The notes under the pieces: generated by a model
What the model saw: the letters and a program-made list of their open reading frames with translations, nothing else
Database searches by the model: none
What the model was told of the DNA's origin: nothing
Part shown: one piece after another, positions 421 to 18,128 of the stretch
How positions within the stretch are numbered: the first letter of the stretch is position 1
Layout: each line of letters opens with the position of its first letter
Program-made: the position numbers and the translations under genes
Source: a virus
Lineage: Duplodnaviria; Caudoviricetes
Strand: one strand, 5' to 3'
Virus record (IMG/VR): IMGVR_UViG_3300037478_000195
Span: 1 to 40,229 of that record
Length of the DNA stretch: 40,229 bases

Positions 421-490
421 GGGGCCAAGTTATGCGTCATAGTCGTTGCCAAGTTAGGCGTCACGTGACGTACAAATTACGTTGGGCCCC
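421..490. repeat. Imperfect palindromic element with a 16-bp near-identical direct repeat and three GTTRRRY-like cores
   Basis: GCCAAGTTATGCGTCA at 424-439 and GCCAAGTTAGGCGTCA at 448-463. Outer arms GGGGCCAA (421) and TTGGGCCCC (482-490). Confidence 0.6.
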
Positions 491-850
491 ACGGCCTATG
501 TTCGCGTCAATGTCCAGGCGGGCGCCACCAATGCCGCGCGCCGGGATGCTTTGACAGATCGAGCGAACCCGCTCGCGCACTTCGGGGTCGGCGTGGTCTG
601 CAGTCAGCCAGCGCAGTCGCAGCGCATCGGCGCGCATCTCTCCCATAGCAGCAGCATCGCCGCGTCTGGCCTCGGCCATCGCGTGCCACTCGGCAGCGTC
701 GCCACGCCGGGCCTCGCTCATCATGCCCACGGCATTGCGCAGGCTCACCAGCTCGCGCTCGCGGTCCAGCCAGCGGCGCAGCACGGCGCGCAGGTTGCGC
801 CAGAAGGTGCCCACGTTCAGGCGGCGGGCGTCAGTGTCATAGGTGTTCAT
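461..850 (-). CDS. Hypothetical phage protein with internal repeat (EARRGDAA x2)
   Basis: 129-aa ORF with RBS GAGGA, in operon orientation. Confidence 0.7.
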   Translation of the reverse strand: MNTYDTDARRLNVGTFWRNLRAVLRRWLDRERELVSLRNAVGMMSEARRGDAAEWHAMAEARRGDAAAMGEMRADALRLRWLTADHADPEVRERVRSICQSIPARGIGGARLDIDANIGRGAQRNLYVT

Positions 851-875
851 CAGTTTCCTCGCTTCGGATACAGGG

Positions 876-938
876 GCCTAACCCCCGGTTGGAGAGCCGG
901 ACTTGCCTTCGGCAAGCCGCTCAACCGGAACGTTAGGC
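876..938 (-). repeat. attC-like (59-base-element-like) imperfect hairpin
   Basis: GCCTAAC at 876-882 and GTTAGGC at 932-938, inner arms CCGGTT/AACCGG and CTTGCC/GGCAAG with bulged bases. The TAA stop of 933..1124 lies inside the RYYYAAC box. Confidence 0.65.
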
Positions 939-1124
939 CCTACGAATCGCCTTAGCCACGCGATGCGCCAGGTTCTCGAAGCCATCGCCAATCTCGGCCA
1001 GCGCTGCGTCAACACACCGCTCGCGCTCTGCGGCTACGGCAGCGTCATACAGCCATTGCAGTGCCGCCCACTTGGTTTCGTGGTTGCGGGCCGACCAGTC
1101 AATGAGTTTCGTGCGCTCGTCCAT
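933..1124 (-). CDS. Hypothetical protein (AAVAAERERC coiled-coil motif, common in phage nin regions)
   Basis: 63-aa ORF with RBS AAGGA. Confidence 0.7.
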   Translation of the reverse strand: MDERTKLIDWSARNHETKWAALQWLYDAAVAAERERCVDAALAEIGDGFENLAHRVAKAIRRA

Positions 1125-1170
1125 CGTTGTTCCTTTCGCTTCGGCACCAGAGGCCCGTTGTCTGCATTGC

Positions 1171-1850: not shown

Positions 1851-2233
1851 GCAGCACCCCCGTGCGTGTTGGTGTGGTACACGCGCTCAGCAGGCGCCTT
1901 ACCGTACGTGATGCGCGTCTGAGGCGTGATGATTGGCTCGCCAGGCATGCGGGCTGGGCCGCCTCGTGTTGGAGGCGCCAGCCTGTTCGCGCTACCCGAC
2001 TTGCGCAGCACAGTGGGCTGTGGAGTTGCGTAGTACGCATCAGCCCGCTCGCGGGTGTCGAAATATCGCTTCTCAGCTTTCCCGCCCATGGACGCCAGCG
2101 TGAAAACCCGCCCAGCTCGCACTAGCCGCGTAGTCGTGCAGCAGATTGATCTTTCGGTCCAGCCGATGACCTCCTTGTTTGCGTAGCCAGTGGGCTGCTT
2201 TGCCAATTGCTCAAGATGCGCCGTGAGCTGCAT
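1847..2233 (-). CDS. Hypothetical protein, possible winged-helix N-terminus
   Basis: Start MQLTAHL with RBS GGAG, stop overlaps the next gene. Confidence 0.6.
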   Translation of the reverse strand: MQLTAHLEQLAKQPTGYANKEVIGWTERSICCTTTRLVRAGRVFTLASMGGKAEKRYFDTRERADAYYATPQPTVLRKSGSANRLAPPTRGGPARMPGEPIITPQTRITYGKAPAERVYHTNTHGGAA

Positions 2234-2492
2234 GTGGGTTGCTCCAAGGTTTGAAAACGATAAGGCTCGGAAAGTGCCGCACTTCCGGCTCACGGACCTT
2301 TGTCCTGCGCCTCCCGGAGACCTGAGACGGCAAAGCACAGGCCGGAGGCAATGGCTCAATCACGGGCTCTGGCTCGCGCTTGATCGGGTCTAGATCGCCA
2401 GTGGCAGCGAGAGCACGCAGCACCTGAGTCCGTGATGCCGCCATTCCGGCGCGGACGGCATTGAGAAACGTGCGGGCGTCTTGGCGGTTCAT
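2211..2492 (-). CDS. Hypothetical protein
   Basis: Start MNRQDART in an ATGA overlap with 2489..2713. Confidence 0.6.
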   Translation of the reverse strand: MNRQDARTFLNAVRAGMAASRTQVLRALAATGDLDPIKREPEPVIEPLPPACALPSQVSGRRRTKVREPEVRHFPSLIVFKPWSNPHAAHGAS

Positions 2493-2713
2493 GCGGGCCG
2501 CCCCAAGCCAAGGCGCTGCTGATTCGTGATACTCGGCCACCTGTCCCGGTCTGACCAGGCATGCGCAGAACACAGCCGGTGAATGCCACGATCACCGCTA
2601 TCGACAGTCCAACGGTTCGGGCACCCGTGTGCACAGCACATCAATGAACCGCCAGAGACGGCCTCATCAACTGCGCGTTGATCGCGGTTTTCATCGAACG
2701 TGGTGCGCCTCAT
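2489..2713 (-). CDS. Small Cys/His-rich protein directly downstream of the replication initiator
   Basis: MRRTTF start coupled to the rep stop. CCAHGCPNRW...LCSAH is a likely Zn site. Confidence 0.7.
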   Translation of the reverse strand: MRRTTFDENRDQRAVDEAVSGGSLMCCAHGCPNRWTVDSGDRGIHRLCSAHAWSDRDRWPSITNQQRLGLGRPA

Positions 2714-3558
2714 GCTGTCTCCTGGTGGTACTTGCCTTCGATGACCTTGGCCCAATTCGTCGGGTTTACGAGCCATTCCAGCTCGATCACGAACGGCCTT
2801 TTGTCGCCGCGAGGCGGGGACTTGCCGGTGAGGAACATGCTCTGCCCGACGTAGCCGAAGAGCTTGCGTAGGTAGGCCAGCCCTTGAGCTTCATCCGCCC
2901 ATGATTTTTCGACTGCCGTCTCTCGCCAGCGGGCCCTGAGGTGGTCGGCCCGCGCGCCTCGCCACTGCGAAGGGAGGTGTTGAGGGAGGTGCGGTAGCAC
3001 TTCCGCCCACAGCGCCAAAACCGCGAGGTGCGGGCAGTCTGGCGGGCTCTTTTGCCTTGGGCGCGAAGCAACGAGCGCTAACGCGGGCTGCTCGGCCGAA
3101 GGCGGAGCGGGAGCAACCGTAAGGTTGCTTGTCTTTTCCAAGGAATCAAGAGAGAGGGAATCAGGAATCAGCCCGGCTCGTTCCGGTTGAGGCGGTTGCT
3201 CGCCTTGTTCTGACACCGAACTAGCACCAGACTTGCATGGTGCTGGTATGGTGCTAGCAGCTTCTTTAATGTGAGGGTTCTGATGCTCCGCCCAGGTTTT
3301 CACCTGCAAGTACCGTTTTCCATCGACCTCGTATCGCTCGATGAAGCCCGTTTGGTGCAGCATCTGCAATAGGGCATCTGCGTCGCACTCGTCATATGGC
3401 AGCACTTCGGCCCTGATCTTCTTGGGGCGGTCTTCAAGACGCCCCTCCCGGTCGCACAGCGTCCAGATGCCAGCAAACAGCAGGCGCGCTAGAGGCGGCA
3501 GCTCGCCCAGCACATCGTTCGTGAAAAAGCCGGGCTTGATATTCCTAGAGCGTGCCAT
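2710..3558 (-). CDS. Phage replication initiator (O-analogue; N-terminal winged helix)
   Basis: MARSRNIKPGFF...ARLLFAGIW...DREGR N-terminus and C-terminal LEWLVNPTNWAKVIEGKY, typical of phage initiators. Lies downstream of cII and contains internal iterons. Confidence 0.85.
   Translation of the reverse strand: MARSRNIKPGFFTNDVLGELPPLARLLFAGIWTLCDREGRLEDRPKKIRAEVLPYDECDADALLQMLHQTGFIERYEVDGKRYLQVKTWAEHQNPHIKEAASTIPAPCKSGASSVSEQGEQPPQPERAGLIPDSLSLDSLEKTSNLTVAPAPPSAEQPALALVASRPRQKSPPDCPHLAVLALWAEVLPHLPQHLPSQWRGARADHLRARWRETAVEKSWADEAQGLAYLRKLFGYVGQSMFLTGKSPPRGDKRPFVIELEWLVNPTNWAKVIEGKYHQETA
3140..3257. other. Putative replication origin (iterons within rep)
   Basis: AGCACCA at 3223-3229, TGGTGCT at 3238-3244 and 3249-3255, next to a purine-rich tract with GGAATCA x3 (3140-3171). 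Confidence 0.55.
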
Positions 3559-3754
3559 CGCGCGCCCCCGCCTCTAGCTCCATCAGCATCACCTTGCGGG
3601 GCTGATAGAGCGGGTATTCATTGCCTTGAGCACAGCTGTCGATGAACACCTGATGCTCGTTCTTGTTGCCGTCCACGGCTTCGTATCGAGTGCATGTGCC
3701 GTGCTTTGGGCAGCACAGGCCATAGCAGGCGGATCGGTCTGCGGGCCAGGTCAT
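3545..3754 (-). CDS. Small Cys-rich hypothetical protein
   Basis: MTWPADRSACYGLCCPKHGTCTRY, ATGA overlap with the upstream ORF. Confidence 0.65.
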   Translation of the reverse strand: MTWPADRSACYGLCCPKHGTCTRYEAVDGNKNEHQVFIDSCAQGNEYPLYQPRKVMLMELEAGARDGTL

Positions 3755-4521: not shown

Positions 4522-4817
4522 CAGTCCCACTCCAGTTTTGGGCCCTCGGCCACGTGCATCGCGGCCAGGGCATGCAGGGCCTGCACGTAGTCGGCAGGGA
4601 AGCACTTCATCTCTTGCGGCACGACCTTGAAGCCGAGCTGATAGAGCAACACGAGCGCGTCCTCCAGCTTCTCGGTCTTCGTGCGGCTCACGGTCGATTC
4701 GCTGACACCCAGCACTTGCGCCACGTTGCGGGCGGTCCCAGGGTCTTGCATCGCCTGCAAGACGGCCGAATGCGCCTTGCGTGCTCTTTCCGATGGGCTC
4801 TGTGAGAGTTCGGACAT
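4521..4817 (-). CDS. cII: CII-family transcriptional activator
   Basis: VAQVLGVSESTVSRTK HTH followed by LGFKVVP, characteristic of lambda CII family. Downstream of cro. Confidence 0.85.
   Translation of the reverse strand: MSELSQSPSERARKAHSAVLQAMQDPGTARNVAQVLGVSESTVSRTKTEKLEDALVLLYQLGFKVVPQEMKCFPADYVQALHALAAMHVAEGPKLEWD
4777..4809 (+). promoter_or_regulatory. Putative CII-activated PRE promoter
   Basis: TTGC-N6-TTTC at 4777-4790, then 13 nt, then GAGAGT. Overlaps the 5' end of cII and points toward cI, matching lambda PRE geometry. Confidence 0.45.
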
Positions 4818-4964
4818 CACTACACCGGAGCGATGATGGACACGACCGAATGGGCCGCAGCCAAGCTGCGAGAGCTGGTGCGCCAAGCACTGCGCTGCAT
4901 CGCAGCGGAATACCTGCTGATGGCGGCCAGCCTATGACCTACACTGAAATGACTGGGAGATGCA

Positions 4965-5186
4965 ATGGAGACAAAACTCCAATCACTGGATGCGCGCCTA
5001 GTGCGCCTGGAAGGCGGCTTGCTGGCCGCAACGGTCGTGCTTGGGCTGCTGGTCCAGCGCGATCCACGGCTGAAAGAGTCGCTCAGGGCGGCGCAAGTGC
5101 ATGCCGTGCTGCCGCAGGCATACGCCGACCTGGGGCCGGAGGTGACGGCTGCGGCGCAGCGCTGGCTGGGCGATCTGCTTGCATAG
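4965..5186 (+). CDS. Small hypothetical protein, opposite strand to cro-cII
   Basis: RBS GGGAG at 4955-4959, 73 aa, with hydrophobic segment LLAATVVLGLLV. Confidence 0.6.
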   Translation: METKLQSLDARLVRLEGGLLAATVVLGLLVQRDPRLKESLRAAQVHAVLPQAYADLGPEVTAAAQRWLGDLLA

Positions 5187-5401
5187 CCCATTTGGGCATC
5201 AAGGGCACCCACAAAACATGTAGGTCCGCCGCCGTCATAACGCACAGTCATGGCGCTGTCATAACTCGCAAAAGGCGCGTAGAGTGGTCTGTTTCCAGCG
5301 CGCAAAGGCAATACATGTTCCAGACTCAAACGCAGCCCCGCATCATCTCGATGCGGGCATGGCGGCTGGCTCACCCTGAAAGATGCCAATGCCATGGCGG
5401 C

Positions 5402-5599
5402 CTACCTGCGGCGAGCGGGACGAGCCAGCGTGTCGCGCAAGGCGCGAAGCGTCTCAACCCCAGGATTGGGAATTTTCCCGTTGACAAACTTCGATATCCA
5501 GGAGTAGCTGACGCCGGACTCGCTAGAAATCTGTCTCCAAAAGCCAAGGCGCCCCTTCAGGGCCTCCCGGATCGGTGCAACGTCAAGGTCGATAGCCAT
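5402..5599 (-). CDS. cro: Cro-like XRE HTH regulator
   Basis: ISSESGVSYSWISKFVNGKIPNPGVETL HTH, divergent from the repressor. Confidence 0.85.
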   Translation of the reverse strand: MAIDLDVAPIREALKGRLGFWRQISSESGVSYSWISKFVNGKIPNPGVETLRALRDTLARPARRR

Positions 5600-5605
5600 G
5601 TTGGC

Positions 5606-5648
5606 AGTATCGCAAAACTTTGCGATTCACGCAATCAACACTTTGCGA
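5606..5648 (-). promoter_or_regulatory. PR promoter and OR operator(s)
   Basis: TTGCGT (5634-5629), 17 nt, GATACT (5611-5606). Palindrome ATCGCAAA-AC-TTTGCGAT at 5609-5626 and a half-site CTTTGCGA at 5641-5648. Confidence 0.8.
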
Positions 5649-5671
5649 GTGCGCTTGCCGACACTTCTAGC

Positions 5672-6022
5672 GTGGAGAAAAAACAAGGCAATCAAATACT
5701 TGCGGAGGCGATTGGCTTCTACTTGAAGGCCGCGGGCCTGAATTACTCGTCTCTCGCCGCGAAGGCCGGGGTGGCCCCGAACACGGTCAAGTACTGCCAC
5801 CAGCCCGGGAAGCGCCCCGGAGCTGACAGCAAGAGCGCAAAGACGCCATCCGCAAACATGGGCGACCTGGAAAAAATCGCCACCGCGCTCGGGCTGGAGC
5901 TGGCGGACCTGGTGACCGACAGAACCGATGCTGAGCGCATCGCCATTCTGCGCAAGCGCGCAGCCGCCCACTATGAAGCACATGGCGTGCTGCCAGAGTG
6001 GGCGCCGGACAAGGCCGCATAG
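5672..6022 (+). CDS. cI: CI-like repressor, XRE HTH only (116 aa, GTG start)
   Basis: LNYSSLAAKAGVAPNTV...LEKIATALGLELADL. Lies between divergent operator-containing promoters. Confidence 0.75.
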   Translation: MEKKQGNQILAEAIGFYLKAAGLNYSSLAAKAGVAPNTVKYCHQPGKRPGADSKSAKTPSANMGDLEKIATALGLELADLVTDRTDAERIAILRKRAAAHYEAHGVLPEWAPDKAA

Positions 6023-7139: not shown

Positions 7140-7309
7140 AAGCCTACGCACCCGACACAAAGAAAGGCCGCCACGTTGCCGGCCACGACGTGCACCACAA
7201 GACGGCCGATATGTCACGAGCTGGCGCGAAGAAGATCGCCAAGCGCCTGAAGCATGCCGCCCGTCAACAGGGCGTGCGCGCCTCCAAAACTGGAGGCTCA
7301 CATGGCTGA
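7136..7309 (+). CDS. Small basic hypothetical protein
   Basis: MKAYAPDTKKGRH start in an ATGA overlap, RBS GGAGG. Confidence 0.6.
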   Translation: MKAYAPDTKKGRHVAGHDVHHKTADMSRAGAKKIAKRLKHAARQQGVRASKTGGSHG

Positions 7310-7607
7310 TGCAAAGCACACGCCGGGGCCGTGGACATGGTTGCGCAATGACGCTTGCGCGCACGGCCTCAAAGGCGCCTACGTGCGATCCGCAGTCCTG
7401 ATGCCCGGCGGGCGCTACCGCGAGCTGGCAATCGTGAGTGCACGCGAAGTCGGCGATCAGGCGGTCTGCGAAGCGAACGCCCGCCTGATCGCCGCCGCGC
7501 CAGAGTTGCTCGCCGAAGCCAAGAACCTCCTCGCGCTCTACGAAGAGCTGGGCACGCCCGCCGACGAGCTGCGCGCCCTGATCGCACGCGCAGAGGGCCG
7601 GACATGA
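7302..7607 (+). CDS. HTPGPW-type phage protein
   Basis: KHTPGPW...EANARLIAAAPELL...IARAEG signature, RBS GGAGG. Confidence 0.8.
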   Translation: MADAKHTPGPWTWLRNDACAHGLKGAYVRSAVLMPGGRYRELAIVSAREVGDQAVCEANARLIAAAPELLAEAKNLLALYEELGTPADELRALIARAEGRT

Positions 7608-11745: not shown

Positions 11746-12518
11746 GCGCGCAGGGCTTGGTGCGGTCCTACATCCCGCTGGAGGAAGGCTTCGACATGAC
11801 CACACCAGAAGACTTCCCGCTGCCTGAGCCAGATGGCTACGCAGTGCTCACGCCGACCGGGACCATCATTGTCTCGCCGGCTGACTTCGCGAGGCACAAC
11901 GCCTATGCGGTGTTCACTGCAGAGCAGCTGCGCGCCACTCTCCGCGCCTGGGTTGCCTCCCGCCCAGCAGCAGAGGCCCCCAATACAGGCACAGCCCAGC
12001 CTGCGGCCCCCGACGTTGACGAACTGGCGCGAGCGATACGCATCTTCGGAGCCGGCGCACTGGCGGAGAGGCTCGTGGAGTGGATGCAGTCTCGCGTGCC
12101 GACAGCGGCACCTGTAGGGAGTGCGGCCGTGCGCGACGTCCTGTCCGACTACGAGCACAACATCCTGGAAGGCGTGGCGAGTTGGCTGCATTCACGCTCG
12201 GGGACCGTATGGGCCAGACAGGGCGGCTACACAGGCTTAATGCAATCGTGGGCCACCGATCTTCGAGGCCTGCGACTTCGTGCCCTCGCCCCTCACCCTG
12301 ATGCATCGGCTCAGCCTGCGAACGCCGACCTCGTTGATGCAGAGCGGTATCGGTGGCTTCGTGACCACTGGCTTGAGGTCCGCGCTTGCCCATCTCAGTT
12401 CGGAGGGACGCTGGGAGTGCGCATCCTTTGCGAAGACGATGACGCCATCGGCGACGGGGCCGAGCGACTGGACGCCGCCATCGACACCGCCCGCGCATCA
12501 AAAGGACAGACGGCATGA
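11742..12518 (+). CDS. Hypothetical Ead/Ea22-like mosaic protein
   Basis: DAERYRWLRD...LDAAIDTA motif, coupled at both ends. Confidence 0.7.
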   Translation: MSAQGLVRSYIPLEEGFDMTTPEDFPLPEPDGYAVLTPTGTIIVSPADFARHNAYAVFTAEQLRATLRAWVASRPAAEAPNTGTAQPAAPDVDELARAIRIFGAGALAERLVEWMQSRVPTAAPVGSAAVRDVLSDYEHNILEGVASWLHSRSGTVWARQGGYTGLMQSWATDLRGLRLRALAPHPDASAQPANADLVDAERYRWLRDHWLEVRACPSQFGGTLGVRILCEDDDAIGDGAERLDAAIDTARASKGQTA

Positions 12519-12739
12519 GCACGCCCTTCAATCCCTATGCTTTTCCGTCGCACGGGTCCATGGGCGAGGTGGTACAGGAGGGCATGTCCCTGCGCGACTA
12601 CTTCGCTGCGAAGGTCTTACACGCTGTCTGCCTTGATTCGGGGGGCTCCTCGTTCGCCCAACGCGCCGAGTGGGCCTACCAGCAGGCCGACGCCATGCTC
12701 CGCGCCCGTCTTGCCTCTCCCACCAAGGAGCCGCAATGA
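12515..12739 (+). CDS. Conserved small phage protein
   Basis: AFP...GMSLRDYFAAK...AYQQADAML signature. Confidence 0.8.
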   Translation: MSTPFNPYAFPSHGSMGEVVQEGMSLRDYFAAKVLHAVCLDSGGSSFAQRAEWAYQQADAMLRARLASPTKEPQ

Positions 12740-12888: not shown

Positions 12889-13715
12889 CAACCACAGCAG
12901 AGACGCCGCTGGAGCTTGCGGCCGCACTTGAAAAGGATCGCTGGCACATCAGCGGGGTAACCGCTCAACGCGCCGCAGACATGCTGCGCGAGTACGCCGC
13001 CCTCGCACCCACACAGGCGGCAGCGCAGCCCGAGGCAGCGGGGGTGCTGAAGGTGTGTGCCGCGTGGTGCGACGACCAAGCCAAGAGCGATTGGTATGGA
13101 AGAACTGCAGGCGACATGGTGCGGGCATTCGCCGCCCTCTCCACTGGCGCAGGAGAGGTGGAGCCGGACGAGCGCAAGGGTGGGGGCAAATTGCCACCCC
13201 CCTTCGGCTCGGCCCAGCCCGTGCCTGCGGCTGATGTGCAGCCCTGCGGTCACCCCGCGAGCTTCTTGCTGCGCTCGGCCGAGACTGGCTTGCCGCTCTA
13301 CTGTGAAATCTGCGACTACCGCGAACAGCGCGACGATGCTGTGATGGTGGGGCAGGAGTTGCGCGAGCAGGTAGCACAGCTTGTCCGCGCTCTGCGAGAA
13401 GCAACCGAGGGGCAGACGTTCATGGGCGAGCCCGCCCTCGCCGCTCGCCCCACACAGGCGCCTGCACCGAGCCAGCAGGCCGACGAGCACGACGATCTGG
13501 TGCGGACCCTGCTGACGGTCTCCCGTGCGCTTTATGCGCTGCCGTACATGCACTGGCTTGTCCCTGCCTGGGACGGCCCACGACTCGCCGGTCAAATTGG
13601 ACGCGCTATCGAGGTGCTGAGTGGTGGGCGCATTACCGCCATCGATGAGTTTGCGCTGGCCATAGAGAAGGCACTCGACGACACCCCACAGCCGCCCAAG
13701 GCGGAGGGCTTATGA
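12885..13715 (+). CDS. Hypothetical mosaic protein with a Cys motif
   Basis: PCGH...YCEIC, Ala/Pro linkers, coupled. Confidence 0.7.
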   Translation: MTTTAETPLELAAALEKDRWHISGVTAQRAADMLREYAALAPTQAAAQPEAAGVLKVCAAWCDDQAKSDWYGRTAGDMVRAFAALSTGAGEVEPDERKGGGKLPPPFGSAQPVPAADVQPCGHPASFLLRSAETGLPLYCEICDYREQRDDAVMVGQELREQVAQLVRALREATEGQTFMGEPALAARPTQAPAPSQQADEHDDLVRTLLTVSRALYALPYMHWLVPAWDGPRLAGQIGRAIEVLSGGRITAIDEFALAIEKALDDTPQPPKAEGL

Positions 13716-14533
13716 GCCGCATCGTTTGCCAATTCTCCTGCGGGGCCGCGTCGGCGGTTGCCACGAAGCTTGCCCTCGCCCAGTACCGCGACACGCACGA
13801 GGTTGTGATCGTCAACGCCGAGATCGTCGAAGAGCACCCGGACAACCGCCGGTTCCTTGCCGATTGCGAAGGCTGGTTCGGGCGCCCTATCACCGTGCTG
13901 CGCGACAAAAAATACGGTGCATCCACGCGGGCTCTGTTCCGCAAACGCCGCTACCTGAAGGGGCGGCGCGGCGCACCGTGCTCGCTGGCCCTCAAGCGCG
14001 AACTGCTCGCCACGTATGAGCAGCCCGGCGACACGCTGGTGCTCGGGTACACGGCCGAGGAACAAGGTCGATTCGACGACTGGATCGACGCCAACAACCA
14101 CAAGCGCGCCATTGCGCCATTGATCGAGGCCAAGCTTGGCAAAGCCGACGTGCTCGCCATGGTCGAGCGTGCGGGGCTCGATCTGCCGGCCATGTACCGC
14201 ATGGGCTACCACAACGCCAACTGCATCGGCTGCGTGAAGGGCGGCGCGGGCTACTGGAACAAGATTCGCCGCGACTTCCCCGACGACTTTGAGGAGATGG
14301 CGCAGATTGAGCAGTCAATCGGCCCAGGTGCGCGCCTATTGCGCCATCGCGCCGGCCCGCTGATCGGGCAGCGCTTCTACCTGCATGAGCTTGACCCGAA
14401 CAGTGGGCGCTACGACGAAGAGCCCGACATTTCCTGCTCGGCGCAATGCGAGTTTGTCGAAGGATCGAGTCAGTGGCAGGAACTGAGTGAGCTTATGACC
14501 TCTACCGCCCAAGAAGAGGGCGAACTGACATGA
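13712..14533 (+). CDS. PAPS-reductase-like / adenine-nucleotide alpha-hydrolase family protein with Cys cluster
   Basis: Degenerate PP-loop FSCGAAS, EEHPDN, PCSLALK, LGY, HNANCIGCVKGG and C-terminal CSAQC. Confidence 0.75.
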   Translation: MSRIVCQFSCGAASAVATKLALAQYRDTHEVVIVNAEIVEEHPDNRRFLADCEGWFGRPITVLRDKKYGASTRALFRKRRYLKGRRGAPCSLALKRELLATYEQPGDTLVLGYTAEEQGRFDDWIDANNHKRAIAPLIEAKLGKADVLAMVERAGLDLPAMYRMGYHNANCIGCVKGGAGYWNKIRRDFPDDFEEMAQIEQSIGPGARLLRHRAGPLIGQRFYLHELDPNSGRYDEEPDISCSAQCEFVEGSSQWQELSELMTSTAQEEGELT

Positions 14534-15770: not shown

Positions 15771-16405
15771 CGGCATCCAAAGAACGCCCGATCCTGATGA
15801 GCGCGCCGATGGTGCGCGCGATCCTCGCCGGCACAAAGACGCAGACGCGGCGGGTGGTGAAGGGCGCGCCAGACGACTGGGCCCCTATGCAACCGCAGGT
15901 GTTCTCGCCAACGGTGATTGACCGGCGCGGAGACGAGCAGCCCGGGCCAGACGCGTTCGGCGCGGGCAACGAGGACGGCGACTGCTGGTTGCGCTGCCCC
16001 TACGGCCAGCCCGGCGACCGACTGTGGGTGCGCGAGTCTTTCAGCGGACCACATCATCAGGAGCGCCATCCGCCGCGCGACTGGCACAGCACTGACCCGA
16101 TCCACTGCTGGGCCGACGGCAACCCGGCGAGCGGTGACTGGACAAAGCCGCGCCCCGGGATGTTCATGCCCCGCTGGGCCAGCCGCGTCACGCTCGAAGT
16201 CACGGGCGTGCGCGTAGAGCGGTTGCAGGACATCAGCCGCGGTGACGCCATGGCTGAAGGCTGCCCGTTCCCGAACATGGCGAAAGGCGATGACCCGCGC
16301 CAGTGGTACGCCGATCTGTGGGAGTCGATCAACGGCCCCGGCAGCTGGGAGGCAAACCCTTGGGTGTGGGTTGTGGAATTCCGCGGGCAGGAGAGTGGAG
16401 GCTGA
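15767..16405 (+). CDS. ASCH/PUA-like phage protein
   Basis: MVRAILAGTKTQTRR, PGDRLWVRE, MPRWASR, RVERLQDIS, NPWVWVVEF. Confidence 0.8.
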   Translation: MTASKERPILMSAPMVRAILAGTKTQTRRVVKGAPDDWAPMQPQVFSPTVIDRRGDEQPGPDAFGAGNEDGDCWLRCPYGQPGDRLWVRESFSGPHHQERHPPRDWHSTDPIHCWADGNPASGDWTKPRPGMFMPRWASRVTLEVTGVRVERLQDISRGDAMAEGCPFPNMAKGDDPRQWYADLWESINGPGSWEANPWVWVVEFRGQESGG

Positions 16406-16406
16406 G

Positions 16407-16613
16407 ATGCTGACATTAAGCGTGGCTGAAGTCCGGCAGTTGACGAGCTACAAGATGCCCGACAAACAATGCGATTGGTTGCGATCAAACGGCGTGCCGT
16501 TTCGCGTTGACCACCTGGGACGCCCAATCGTTTGCGCTGCTCACGTTGAGGCATGGGTGCGCGGTGTCGCCATGCGGCCATCGTCGGGGGCGCTGCTTGA
16601 GAATGTCCGCTAA
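16407..16613 (+). CDS. xis: DUF4224-type excisionase / recombination directionality factor
   Basis: LSVAEVRQLT...QCDWLRSNGVPFRV..GRPIV, coupled to the integrase (TAATG). Confidence 0.75.
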   Translation: MLTLSVAEVRQLTSYKMPDKQCDWLRSNGVPFRVDHLGRPIVCAAHVEAWVRGVAMRPSSGALLENVR

Positions 16614-17638
16614 TGCCGCGCAAATCTAAGTACCCCCGGCTGCGCGTTCATGTTCGCAAGGGCAAAGCGGGGCAAGTCTGGACAAGCTACTACTACGACT
16701 GCCGCGCAGATGGCCTGCCCGACGAACCGCTTGGCAACGATTACGAGTTGGCGCTGAAAAAATGGGATGAGCTGCACAACCAAAAGCCCCGCATCATCGG
16801 CACCTGCCAAGAGGCATTCGATGCTTGGGAGAAGGAGGTTCTGCCAACATACACCAGCGATGAAACACGCAAGGGCTACGCGCGCAGCCTCAAGTTCCTG
16901 CGGCCGGTGTTCAACACGGCCACATGGGACAGCATCACGTTCCCGGTGCTAAAGAAGTACCTAAAGAAGCGCACCGCCAAGACCCAGGGCAACCGGGAGA
17001 TGGCGCTGTTTTCAATCATCTGGCGCTGGGCGTTTGGCGAGGGGTATACGGCCCTACCTTGGCCGGCAGCAGGCATGGAGAGAAGCAAATGGAAGAACAA
17101 GGAGACGCCTCGGGAGTTCGAGGTTACCGATGCCCTTTTTGCGGCAGTACATTCAGCAGCAGTTCAGCCGCTGAAGGACGCGATGGACTTAGCGAGCGCG
17201 ACCGGGCTTCGTTTGACCGATGTCAGGCTTTGCACAATGCCATCTGGTGCGGAGGGCCGTGGCCTGATGGTGTCAGCCAGCAAGACTGGCAAGCGGGTGG
17301 AGTTCGAGATCGAGGCTGGCTCGGTCTTGGCTTCTTTGGTCTCTAGGCGAAAAGCAATCAAGGCAAGTCATCTGATGCTTCTCAGCACGCCAACGGGACG
17401 CCCGGTGTCAGCTCGCATGCTGCGCGACTGGTGGGATGAAGCCCGCGAAGCAGCAGCCAAGAAGCACCCCGAACTTGCTGACCAACTCCGCGCGATGTAC
17501 CTGCGCGACATGCGCAAGAGGGCGGCCGATCTGGCGGGCGACTTGACCGAAGCATCCAAGCTCTTGCAGCACAGCAGCGAAGCCATCACGGCTGCGCATT
17601 ACAGAACCAAGGCGGTGAAGGTGAGGCCAGTTAGATGA
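16613..17638 (+). CDS. int: Tyrosine recombinase (phage integrase)
   Basis: TGLR (R), SKTGK (K), LRDMR (HxxR box with H replaced by R), LQH (H), HY (Y). Adjacent to attP. Confidence 0.93.
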   Translation: MPRKSKYPRLRVHVRKGKAGQVWTSYYYDCRADGLPDEPLGNDYELALKKWDELHNQKPRIIGTCQEAFDAWEKEVLPTYTSDETRKGYARSLKFLRPVFNTATWDSITFPVLKKYLKKRTAKTQGNREMALFSIIWRWAFGEGYTALPWPAAGMERSKWKNKETPREFEVTDALFAAVHSAAVQPLKDAMDLASATGLRLTDVRLCTMPSGAEGRGLMVSASKTGKRVEFEIEAGSVLASLVSRRKAIKASHLMLLSTPTGRPVSARMLRDWWDEAREAAAKKHPELADQLRAMYLRDMRKRAADLAGDLTEASKLLQHSSEAITAAHYRTKAVKVRPVR

Positions 17639-17925: not shown

Positions 17926-18128
17926 TTGCGGAAGCGGTTGCGGAAACTATGCGGAAACGATGAGGCCCTGAAGCGGGGGTGGTGCCTCGGGTCGGAATCG
18001 AACCGACACTCCTTGCGGAACGGGATTTTGAGTCCCATATCGTTTTGAGCACTGGCGGGGCTTTGCTGGCGATTACTTCCGCAACGATACACGAAACCTC
18101 TCCTATGAGAACCTTTGGTTGCGGAAGC
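17926..18128. repeat. Integrase arm-type binding repeats flanking the attP core
   Basis: TTGCGGAAG 17926, TTGCGGAAA 17938, ATGCGGAAA 17949, inverted CTTCCGCAAC 18076-18085, GGTTGCGGAAGC 18117-18128. Confidence 0.75.
17980..18035 (-). other. attP core: 3' half of tRNA-Leu(CAA)
   Basis: Minus strand GGACTCAAAATCCCGTTCCGCAAGGAGTGTCGGTTCGATTCCGACCCGAGGCACCA contains the anticodon loop CAA, long variable arm, T-loop and CCA end. No 5' half is present. Confidence 0.9.

What the first reader, a model, noticed from the sequence alone, without database searches (positions are those of the whole stretch)
876..938. Integron attC-like site in a phage nin region with no integron integrase: possible phage gene-cassette system
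Seen: a 63-bp imperfect hairpin with GCCTAAC and GTTAGGC ends, a short unpaired spacer, inner arms with bulged bases on one arm, and the upstream gene's TAA inside the RYYYAAC box. It has no U-tract. Established: this matches the architecture of integron attC sites, which IntI recombines as folded single strands. The phage integrase here is a tRNA-targeting type with its own attP. Inference: either phage accessory genes are captured or shuffled by a host IntI in trans, or attC-derived repeats serve as homology anchors for the phage Sak4 recombinase. I regard this as the best candidate for an under-described system in the window.
Basis: partly seen in the sequence, partly recalled or inferred. 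Interest (0 to 1): 0.8.

Follow-up and report, generated by a model that had tools for sequence, protein, structure and literature searches.

The report
Backward integron cassette in a phage
This temperate phage carries a real integron recombination site (attC) on a small gene cassette whose gene faces backwards, next to a likely docking site (attI); many related phages carry whole arrays of such backward cassettes, some with their own integron enzyme, so phages likely swap accessory early genes with integron machinery, which this one would have to borrow.

Summary
The 63-nt hairpin at 876-938 is real and is an attC. A covariance model built only from bacterial attC sites scores it 33.6 bits (E about 2e-6) on the minus strand and 11.1 on plus. 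The site closes a 451-nt cassette (482-932) with an antisense gene, docked at an attI-like site (424-487). No IntI is encoded here. In 78 viral loci the cassette-side gene was antisense at 185 of 254 sites (12 sense); in bacterial loci it was sense at 126 of 254 (19 antisense). Identical cassettes recur in new flanks with breaks at G|TT. Nineteen phage IntI proteins with intact catalytic residues group together. Likely mechanism: IntI supplied in trans. This copy is somewhat decayed and activity is untested. Phage attC clusters are published (Qi 2023); I found no paper on the reversed layout. The scan found this layout before on other DNA (69 findings).

The parts
876..938 (+). attC site (top strand = plus; recombining bottom strand = minus). 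R'' 876-882, spacer 883-887, L'' 888-895, first extrahelical base at 891 (C on the bottom strand, G is usual), 3-nt extra bulge at about 895-897, second extrahelical base 901 (T on the bottom strand), L' 919-925, spacer 926-931, R' 932-938; predicted crossover G932|T933
   Evidence: (33.6 bits minus, 11.1 plus)
482..932 (+). Cassette 1: 451-nt unit from the R core at 481-487 to the attC crossover. R'' pairs 6 of 7 with the 481-487 core
   Evidence: homologous cassette in other phages, one pair 100% identical over 438 nt with different flanks
461..850 (-). Cassette gene, 129 aa, function unknown, antisense to the attC. Six of the 32 aligned homologues end at the matching GRGA position; here the codon in the R core is CAA and the frame runs 7 codons on into the attI-like site
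   Evidence: (141 hits); codon score 25.8 versus -6.9 for the overlapping plus-strand ORF; no Pfam, PHROG or atlas function
851..875 (-). Short leader with ribosome-binding site between R'' and the start codon; typical spacing for these phage cassettes (20-29 nt in 67 of 185)
424..487 (+). attI-like site: 16-nt direct repeats 424-439 and 448-463 (GTT boxes at 429 and 453), L-like region 466-480, R core 481-487; predicted insertion point G481|T482
   Evidence: repeats 94% identical; best of 935 GTT in the window, 19.3 bits against a profile of attI sites next to phage intI; next best 9.7; 3 of 100 whole-window shuffles reach it
933..1155 (-). Likely second cassette that has lost its own attC: 63-aa gene 933-1124 whose TAA is the TTA of R', with a leader (1125-1155) like that of cassette 1
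   Evidence: 20-nt repeat, 80%; leader motif occurs only at 867 and 1144; no attC found upstream
16613..17638 (+). Context: phage tyrosine integrase, not an IntI
17975..18036 (-). Context: attP core matching the 3' 62 nt of tRNA-Leu(CAA); points to hosts in the family of an Aquabacterium genome

Best explanation
The site is an integron attC that closes a gene cassette whose gene lies on the strand opposite to the usual one, next to a likely attI; it was likely inserted by an integron integrase (IntI) and would be excised or joined by new cassettes only with IntI supplied in trans by the host or a co-resident phage. Shown: attC anatomy and strand; antisense gene; no intI in this genome; the same layout in many phages; cassette-sized units moving with breaks at G|TT; phages with a complete intI-attI-array between their early genes and their own integrase. 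Inferred: the minus strand folds during replication and IntI exchanges it at G932|T933 or G481|T482; the genes are read from the phage early promoter rather than from a Pc, so a new cassette lands last in the operon; the reversal places the recombining strand on the lagging-strand template, which favours recombination; this attI descends from a phage integron that lost intI.
For: Model from 62 bacterial attC sites: 33.6 bits, E about 2e-6, minus strand. Polarity: viral 185 antisense, 12 sense, 57 uncalled of 254 sites; bacterial 126 sense, 19 antisense, 109 uncalled of 254. Model hits lie on the gene-coding strand in 57 of 58 hits around homologues of this cassette gene and 68 of 69 in intI-bearing and array phages, and on the opposite strand in 7 of 7 class 1 sites. 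Circle signature: 55 of 79 non-GCCT R'' boxes pair perfectly with the core at the far end of their own cassette versus 4 with their array neighbour (shuffles mean 6.3, max 16); bacterial 52 of 93 versus 6. Two cassettes 100% identical in new flanks, breaking within 3 nt of both G|TT points (L398/L399 = this gene family; L157/L161). L378/L380: 96-97% identical flanks, different arrays from the last attC to attI. G039 contig ends diverge exactly at attI G|TT. 19 phage IntI keep R-K-H-R-H-Y and the IntI insertion; the one scanned passes TIGR02249 at 410.9 versus 265; they form one side of a branch (83/72; SH-aLRT 96 with the 15 nearest host-family IntI). IntI over cut-off in 132 of 301 genomes of the likely host family and 12 of the 13 best attP matches. 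Lagging-template effect: PMC5371416 passages.
Against: No recombination or expression was tested. This copy is imperfect: C instead of G as first extrahelical base (a 2.7-fold loss in PMC2727003), a 3-nt extra bulge, canonical fold probability about 0.05 versus 0.115 and 0.695 for two class 1 sites (my rough calculation), one mismatch between R'' and its core, DR spacing 28 versus 31 in 16 of 19 phage attI, and 3 of 100 shuffles match the attI score. Contigs of four runs show no excision joint. 11 of 32 homologous genes lack an upstream R'' box. Among 90-95% identical cassette pairs most attC-side breaks fall in the leader or hairpin, not at G|TT (3 of 38 right breaks at G, 11 of 34 left). Only 1 of 50 attC-bearing virus records has a full IntI. 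No origin iterons were found, so the lagging-strand step rests on lambdoid precedent. The phage IntI set was chosen by similarity to one query.
Confidence: 0.72

Rival explanations
1. Inert relic: the cassette was placed by IntI in an ancestor but this copy no longer recombines; the hairpin persists as part of the gene leader and is being lost, as the second cassette's attC appears to have been.
For: Atypical extrahelical base and bulge, fold probability about 0.05; read-through of the R core; shortened attI spacing; no intI; second cassette without attC; attC-free homologues; no joints.
Against: All boxes and both extrahelical positions are kept; G-to-C costs only 2.7-fold; the attI repeats are intact; likely hosts commonly carry intI.
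Confidence: 0.2
2. The attC-like repeats serve mainly as short homology anchors for the phage Sak4-like annealing protein, and IntI plays little part.
For: Sak4-like, SSB and Gam-like genes are present. Some homologous cassettes swap leaders or hairpin interiors away from G|TT (L003/L401, L397/L401).
Against: This genome has a single attC, so no repeat family to anneal. Identical moved cassettes break at G|TT on both sides. The circle signature equals that of bacterial integrons. attI and intact intI occur in relatives. Strand-specific extrahelical bases are conserved.
Confidence: 0.06
3. The hairpin is an RNA element (RNase III site or attenuator) or a chance inverted repeat.
For: It lies between two co-transcribed genes on the coding strand, so it would be in the mRNA and could also affect expression.
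Against: z about -6; attC model E about 2e-6 with strand asymmetry; 77.8% match to a class 1 attC; no terminator or Rfam call.
Confidence: 0.02

Closest known systems
Phage CALINs and integrons (Qi et al. 2023, PMC9892861; read main text parts 1-4 of 7 and supplement part 1 of 2; figures and Dryad file not seen)
   Same: attC sites in phage genomes without intI; DNA methyltransferase cargo; five phage attC sites were recombined by IntI1. One of their examples, MW202573, is a P22-like phage with the reversed layout (5 model hits on the gene strand).
   Different: The text I read does not mention reversed genes, phage attI without intI, or a phage IntI group. Their tested phage TJE1 and Shewanella M16-3 have normal polarity.
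SALIN and attG insertion (Loot et al., bioRxiv 10.1101/2022.09.11.507474; passages only)
   Same: A single attC without integrase; formally this window is a SALIN.
   Different: The cassette sits at an attI-like site with direct repeats, not a bare GWT attG; the gene is antisense; relatives are long arrays with intI.
Class 1 and chromosomal integrons (IntI, attI with DR1/DR2, Pc, sense cassettes)
   Same: attC grammar, crossover at G|TT, circle signature, intI placed on the attC bottom strand next to attI in the intI-bearing phages.
   Different: Genes lie on the bottom strand and point towards attI and intI; the stop codon is often the TTA of R' (84 of 194); expression would come from the far end; no intI in this window.
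Inverted-integrase integrons (Cury et al. 2016, PMC4889954; passages only)
   Same: intI and cassette genes point the same way.
   Different: There intI is flipped relative to attC; here intI keeps its normal place and the genes are flipped relative to attC.

Membership tests
attC site | R''/R' boxes with AAC/GTT, L''/L' boxes, 5-6-nt unpaired spacer | tested here: met
attC site | Extrahelical bases on the R''-L'' arm defining one recombining strand | tested here: met
   positions 891 (C instead of usual G) and 901 (T), plus a 3-nt extra bulge; 33.6 versus 11.1 bits by strand
attC site | Canonical fold is well populated | tested here: inconclusive
   probability about 0.05 versus 0.115 and 0.695 for class 1 controls
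attC site | Recombined by IntI as a folded bottom strand at G|TT | not testable with these tools
   needs a conjugation assay; comparative breaks at G|TT in relatives
Complete integron | intI gene beside the array | tested here: not met
   none in this genome; present in relatives
Complete integron | attI with R core, L box and direct repeats | tested here: inconclusive
   best site in the window and at the predicted place, but 3 of 100 shuffles reach the score
Complete integron | Pc promoter at attI reading the cassette genes | tested here: not met
   genes point towards attI; no sigma-70-like site near 424-487
Canonical gene cassette | Unit bounded by G|TT with R'' complementary to its own 5' core | tested here: met
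   6 of 7 here; 55 of 79 informative viral sites perfect
Canonical gene cassette | ORF on the top strand ending at R'' | tested here: not met
   ORF on the bottom strand
CALIN | Two or more attC sites without intI | tested here: not met
   one attC; many relatives meet it
SALIN | Single attC with a gene, no other att site or intI nearby | tested here: inconclusive
   single attC and no intI, but an attI-like site is adjacent

The most novel reading that the evidence does not exclude
Temperate phages of Betaproteobacteria run their own class of integron: a phage-specific IntI lineage and attI family with reversed cassettes wired into the early operons, stocked with DNA-modification and anti-restriction genes. 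IntI-less phages such as this one keep a working attI and cassette and hitch-hike on the IntI of hosts or co-infecting phages. This would be a site-specific engine for the mosaic nin/ea accessory regions and the counterpart of host integrons that stock anti-phage defences.
Probability: 0.55. Interest if true: 0.88.

Novelty: new variant of a known kind. Interest (0 to 1): 0.72.

Why it matters
How lambdoid phages gain and lose the small genes of their early accessory regions is usually put down to homologous or illegitimate recombination. A site-specific cassette system gives exact, testable boundaries for these modules. It reverses the integron rule that strand choice serves expression from Pc, and it marks out a library of small phage genes that includes methyltransferases and Lar-, Mom- and TGT-like proteins (54 of 143 match PHROGs) for counter-defence screens. 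This window is a minimal, partly decayed case: it shows the platform can persist without intI and outside the int-linked operon.

Tried and rejected
Direct BLAST of the site against GenBank phages gave no full-length hit. Three tight patterns found 0, 1 and 2 viral loci. In 80 loci found with the replication protein my scan gave one convincing attC locus (L013), most being unrelated phages, so the trait does not simply follow that gene. 453-459 was considered as the cassette start because it is the perfect complement of R''; rejected because homologues end at the 481 core and 453 scores -11.4 versus 19.3 as attI core. An intI remnant after attI: none in the window; the short frame in L003 resembles an IntI N-terminus by eye but scores E 7.6. 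Overlapping plus-strand ORFs score as non-coding. No function for the cassette protein. A weak model hit at 15906-15961 (E 0.73) lies inside a gene and was dropped. One weak homologue of gene 933-1124. The cassette gene was found in 1 of 401 host-family genomes, with no attC hit there. Contigs of four runs show no joint; contigs drop rare variants; runs with small word shares are no evidence of habitat. No iterons in the replication gene. Rows left out: L170-L220 and L297 onward of the two pattern scans (short flanks), L006 and L420, L372 and L379 in the attI profile. IntegronFinder itself was not available; a home-made grammar scan and model were used.

Full report
The window is a complete 40.2-kb P22-like temperate phage. 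The site lies in the rightward early (nin-like) operon, between the replication gene (2710-3558) and an endonuclease (76-414), all on the minus strand. Its integrase is not an IntI. Its attP core (17975-18036) matches the 3' end of tRNA-Leu(CAA), 100% over 62 nt in genome G370 of the family that holds an Aquabacterium genome.

Observation. The hairpin is there, z about -6 against 200 shuffles, and is the only site in the window that fits attC grammar. It aligns end to end, 77.8%, same orientation, with an attC inside two class 1 integrons. I built a covariance model from 62 bottom strands of attC sites from bacterial genomes only. It scores 876-938 at 33.6 bits (E about 2e-6, rough) on the minus strand and 11.1 on plus. 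The site is slightly atypical: C as first extrahelical base (2.7-fold loss in Bouvier 2009, PMC2727003 passages), a 3-nt extra bulge, and a canonical-fold probability of about 0.05 versus 0.115 and 0.695 for two class 1 sites.

The cassette. With a crossover at G932|T933 the attC belongs to the gene on its left, 461-850, whose start lies 25 nt from R''. The far boundary is the core at 481-487. The protein has 141 database hits and no known function. In 30 metagenome loci with a homologue, 13 have a model hit just before the start codon, as does viral locus L003. An R'' box is there in 21 of 32 loci examined; 11 lack it. The gene sits inside arrays in some loci and next to attI-like sequence in others. 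L398 and L399 hold it 100% identical over 438 nt, attC included, with different neighbours on both sides and breaks at the two G|TT points; L157/L161 is a second such pair among 224 units tested. Against a purely site-specific story: pairs at 90-95% identity mostly break in the leader or hairpin on the attC side, so other recombination or fast drift also acts. Gene 933-1124 stops in R' and has the same leader motif but no attC; it is likely a decayed second cassette.

The attI-like site. 424-487 has two 16-nt repeats and three GTT boxes. A profile from 19 attI sites next to phage intI ranks G481 first of 935 GTT in the window (19.3 bits; next 9.7); 3 of 100 whole-window shuffles reach this, and spacing is 28 rather than the usual 31. 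I call it likely, not shown. GTTA at the DR1 position occurs at 7 of 30 array ends versus 2 of 531 background GTT.

The family. I analysed those with flanks: 87 viral loci including five found earlier, and 76 bacterial. With a codon model trained on window genes, the cassette-side gene was antisense at 185, sense at 12 and uncalled at 57 of 254 viral sites (70, 4, 4 of 78 loci); in bacteria sense at 126, antisense at 19, uncalled at 109 of 254 (46, 8, 11 of 65 loci). Some loci overlap on one contig; duplicate sites were removed. As an independent check, 54 of 143 antisense ORFs (141 of the 185 plus 2 from L003) match PHROGs at E 1e-5: 12 with a DNA methyltransferase as best hit, 3 Lar-like, 1 Mom-like, 1 queuine tRNA-ribosyltransferase, 2 RNA ligase, 2 HNH (my count). 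The circle signature is as strong as in bacterial integrons: 55 of 79 versus 4 (shuffles mean 6.3, max 16 of 2000), bacteria 52 of 93 versus 6. A complete phage, G018, has at least 14 such sites in its leftward early operon and no IntI.

Phages with their own IntI. One of 50 attC-bearing records has a full IntI and two have fragments. The two ends of that contig, G039, share sequence up to attI G|TT and then differ, as expected for two first cassettes in one population. Searching with it gave 26 viral loci laid out as early genes, reversed cassettes, attI, intI, phage integrase. The following gene was an integrase in 15 of 15 loci tested, and tail genes were found in 9 of 12. Nineteen distinct proteins keep all six catalytic residues and the IntI insertion and form one side of a branch, weakly (83/72) and at SH-aLRT 96 once the 15 nearest IntI from 401 host-family genomes are added; the set was chosen by similarity, so one origin is not proven. 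L378 and L380 are 96-97% identical on both flanks and differ in the whole array, from the last attC to attI. Model hits in these loci are on the gene strand in 68 of 69 cases.

Mechanism. Likely: an IntI recombines the folded minus strand at R' with attI or another attC. For this phage it must come in trans; IntI passes the family cut-off in 132 of 301 host-family genomes and 12 of the 13 best attP matches, and related phages carry one. The reversal is inferred to serve two ends. The genes are read from the phage early promoter with no Pc, so the newest cassette is last. And with an origin in or near the replication gene (lambdoid precedent, recalled; no iterons found) the coding strand is the lagging template, where attC folding and excision are higher (Loot 2017, PMC5371416 passages). 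None of this was tested, and this copy may be a relic.

Known work. Qi et al. 2023 (PMC9892861) reported 17 phage CALINs and showed IntI1 recombination of five phage attC sites. Their phage TJE1 and Shewanella M16-3 have normal polarity; MW202573 has the reversed one, which the text I read does not mention; their figures and Dryad annotation file, which I could not see, may show it. SALINs and inverted-integrase integrons differ as listed. Ten full-text searches and passages of three reviews and one survey turned up no description of reversed phage cassettes or a phage IntI group; most subscription papers are not in the library. The scan's own notes describe the same layout in at least 68 other genomes; I saw them after and do not count them as support.

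Verdict. A real attC in a reversed cassette at a likely attI, an IntI-less and partly decayed member of a phage variant of the integron. New variant of a known kind; interest 0.72.

Noticed in passing
window 17975-18036: attP core is the 3' 62 nt of tRNA-Leu(CAA), 100% identical in genome G370.
   Followed up: yes
L365 9600-9786 and L366 1-130 (G039): Both contig ends share sequence up to attI G|TT and then diverge; several other intI phage contigs also end within 200 nt of intI (L374, L375, L379, L381, L388), suggesting assemblies break at variable arrays.
   Followed up: partly
L117/L151 3063-4078: Provirus with five near-identical attC sites at about 316-nt spacing and a fragmented intI: tandemly repeated cassettes.
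   Followed up: no
L004 3096-4612: Reversed array right after a Mu-like gpG/head-morphogenesis-type gene; several cassettes have about 100-nt leaders with small hairpins, possibly their own promoters or RNAs.
   Followed up: no
L442 (MW202573) 2069-3738: A phage shown in Qi et al. 2023 has the reversed layout; it is annotated Myoviridae but has P22-like portal and coat genes.
   Followed up: partly
L443 (KX853513) 4680-5678: GenBank virus Rctr41k encodes an IntI-like protein (46% to a phage IntI) in line with small genes, with no clear attC nearby.
   Followed up: partly
L391/L392: attI and intI are separated from the array by an inverted stretch and intI appears truncated.
   Followed up: no
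window 7254-7607 and 12515-12739: These attC-free genes belong to PHROG families (1273, 2201) that occur as cassette genes in other phages (L088, L099).
   Followed up: no
window 13712-14533: PAPS-reductase-like gene in the leftward early operon, possibly for DNA modification.
   Followed up: no
L372: attI core next to an intact intI reads GCT instead of GTT.
   Followed up: no
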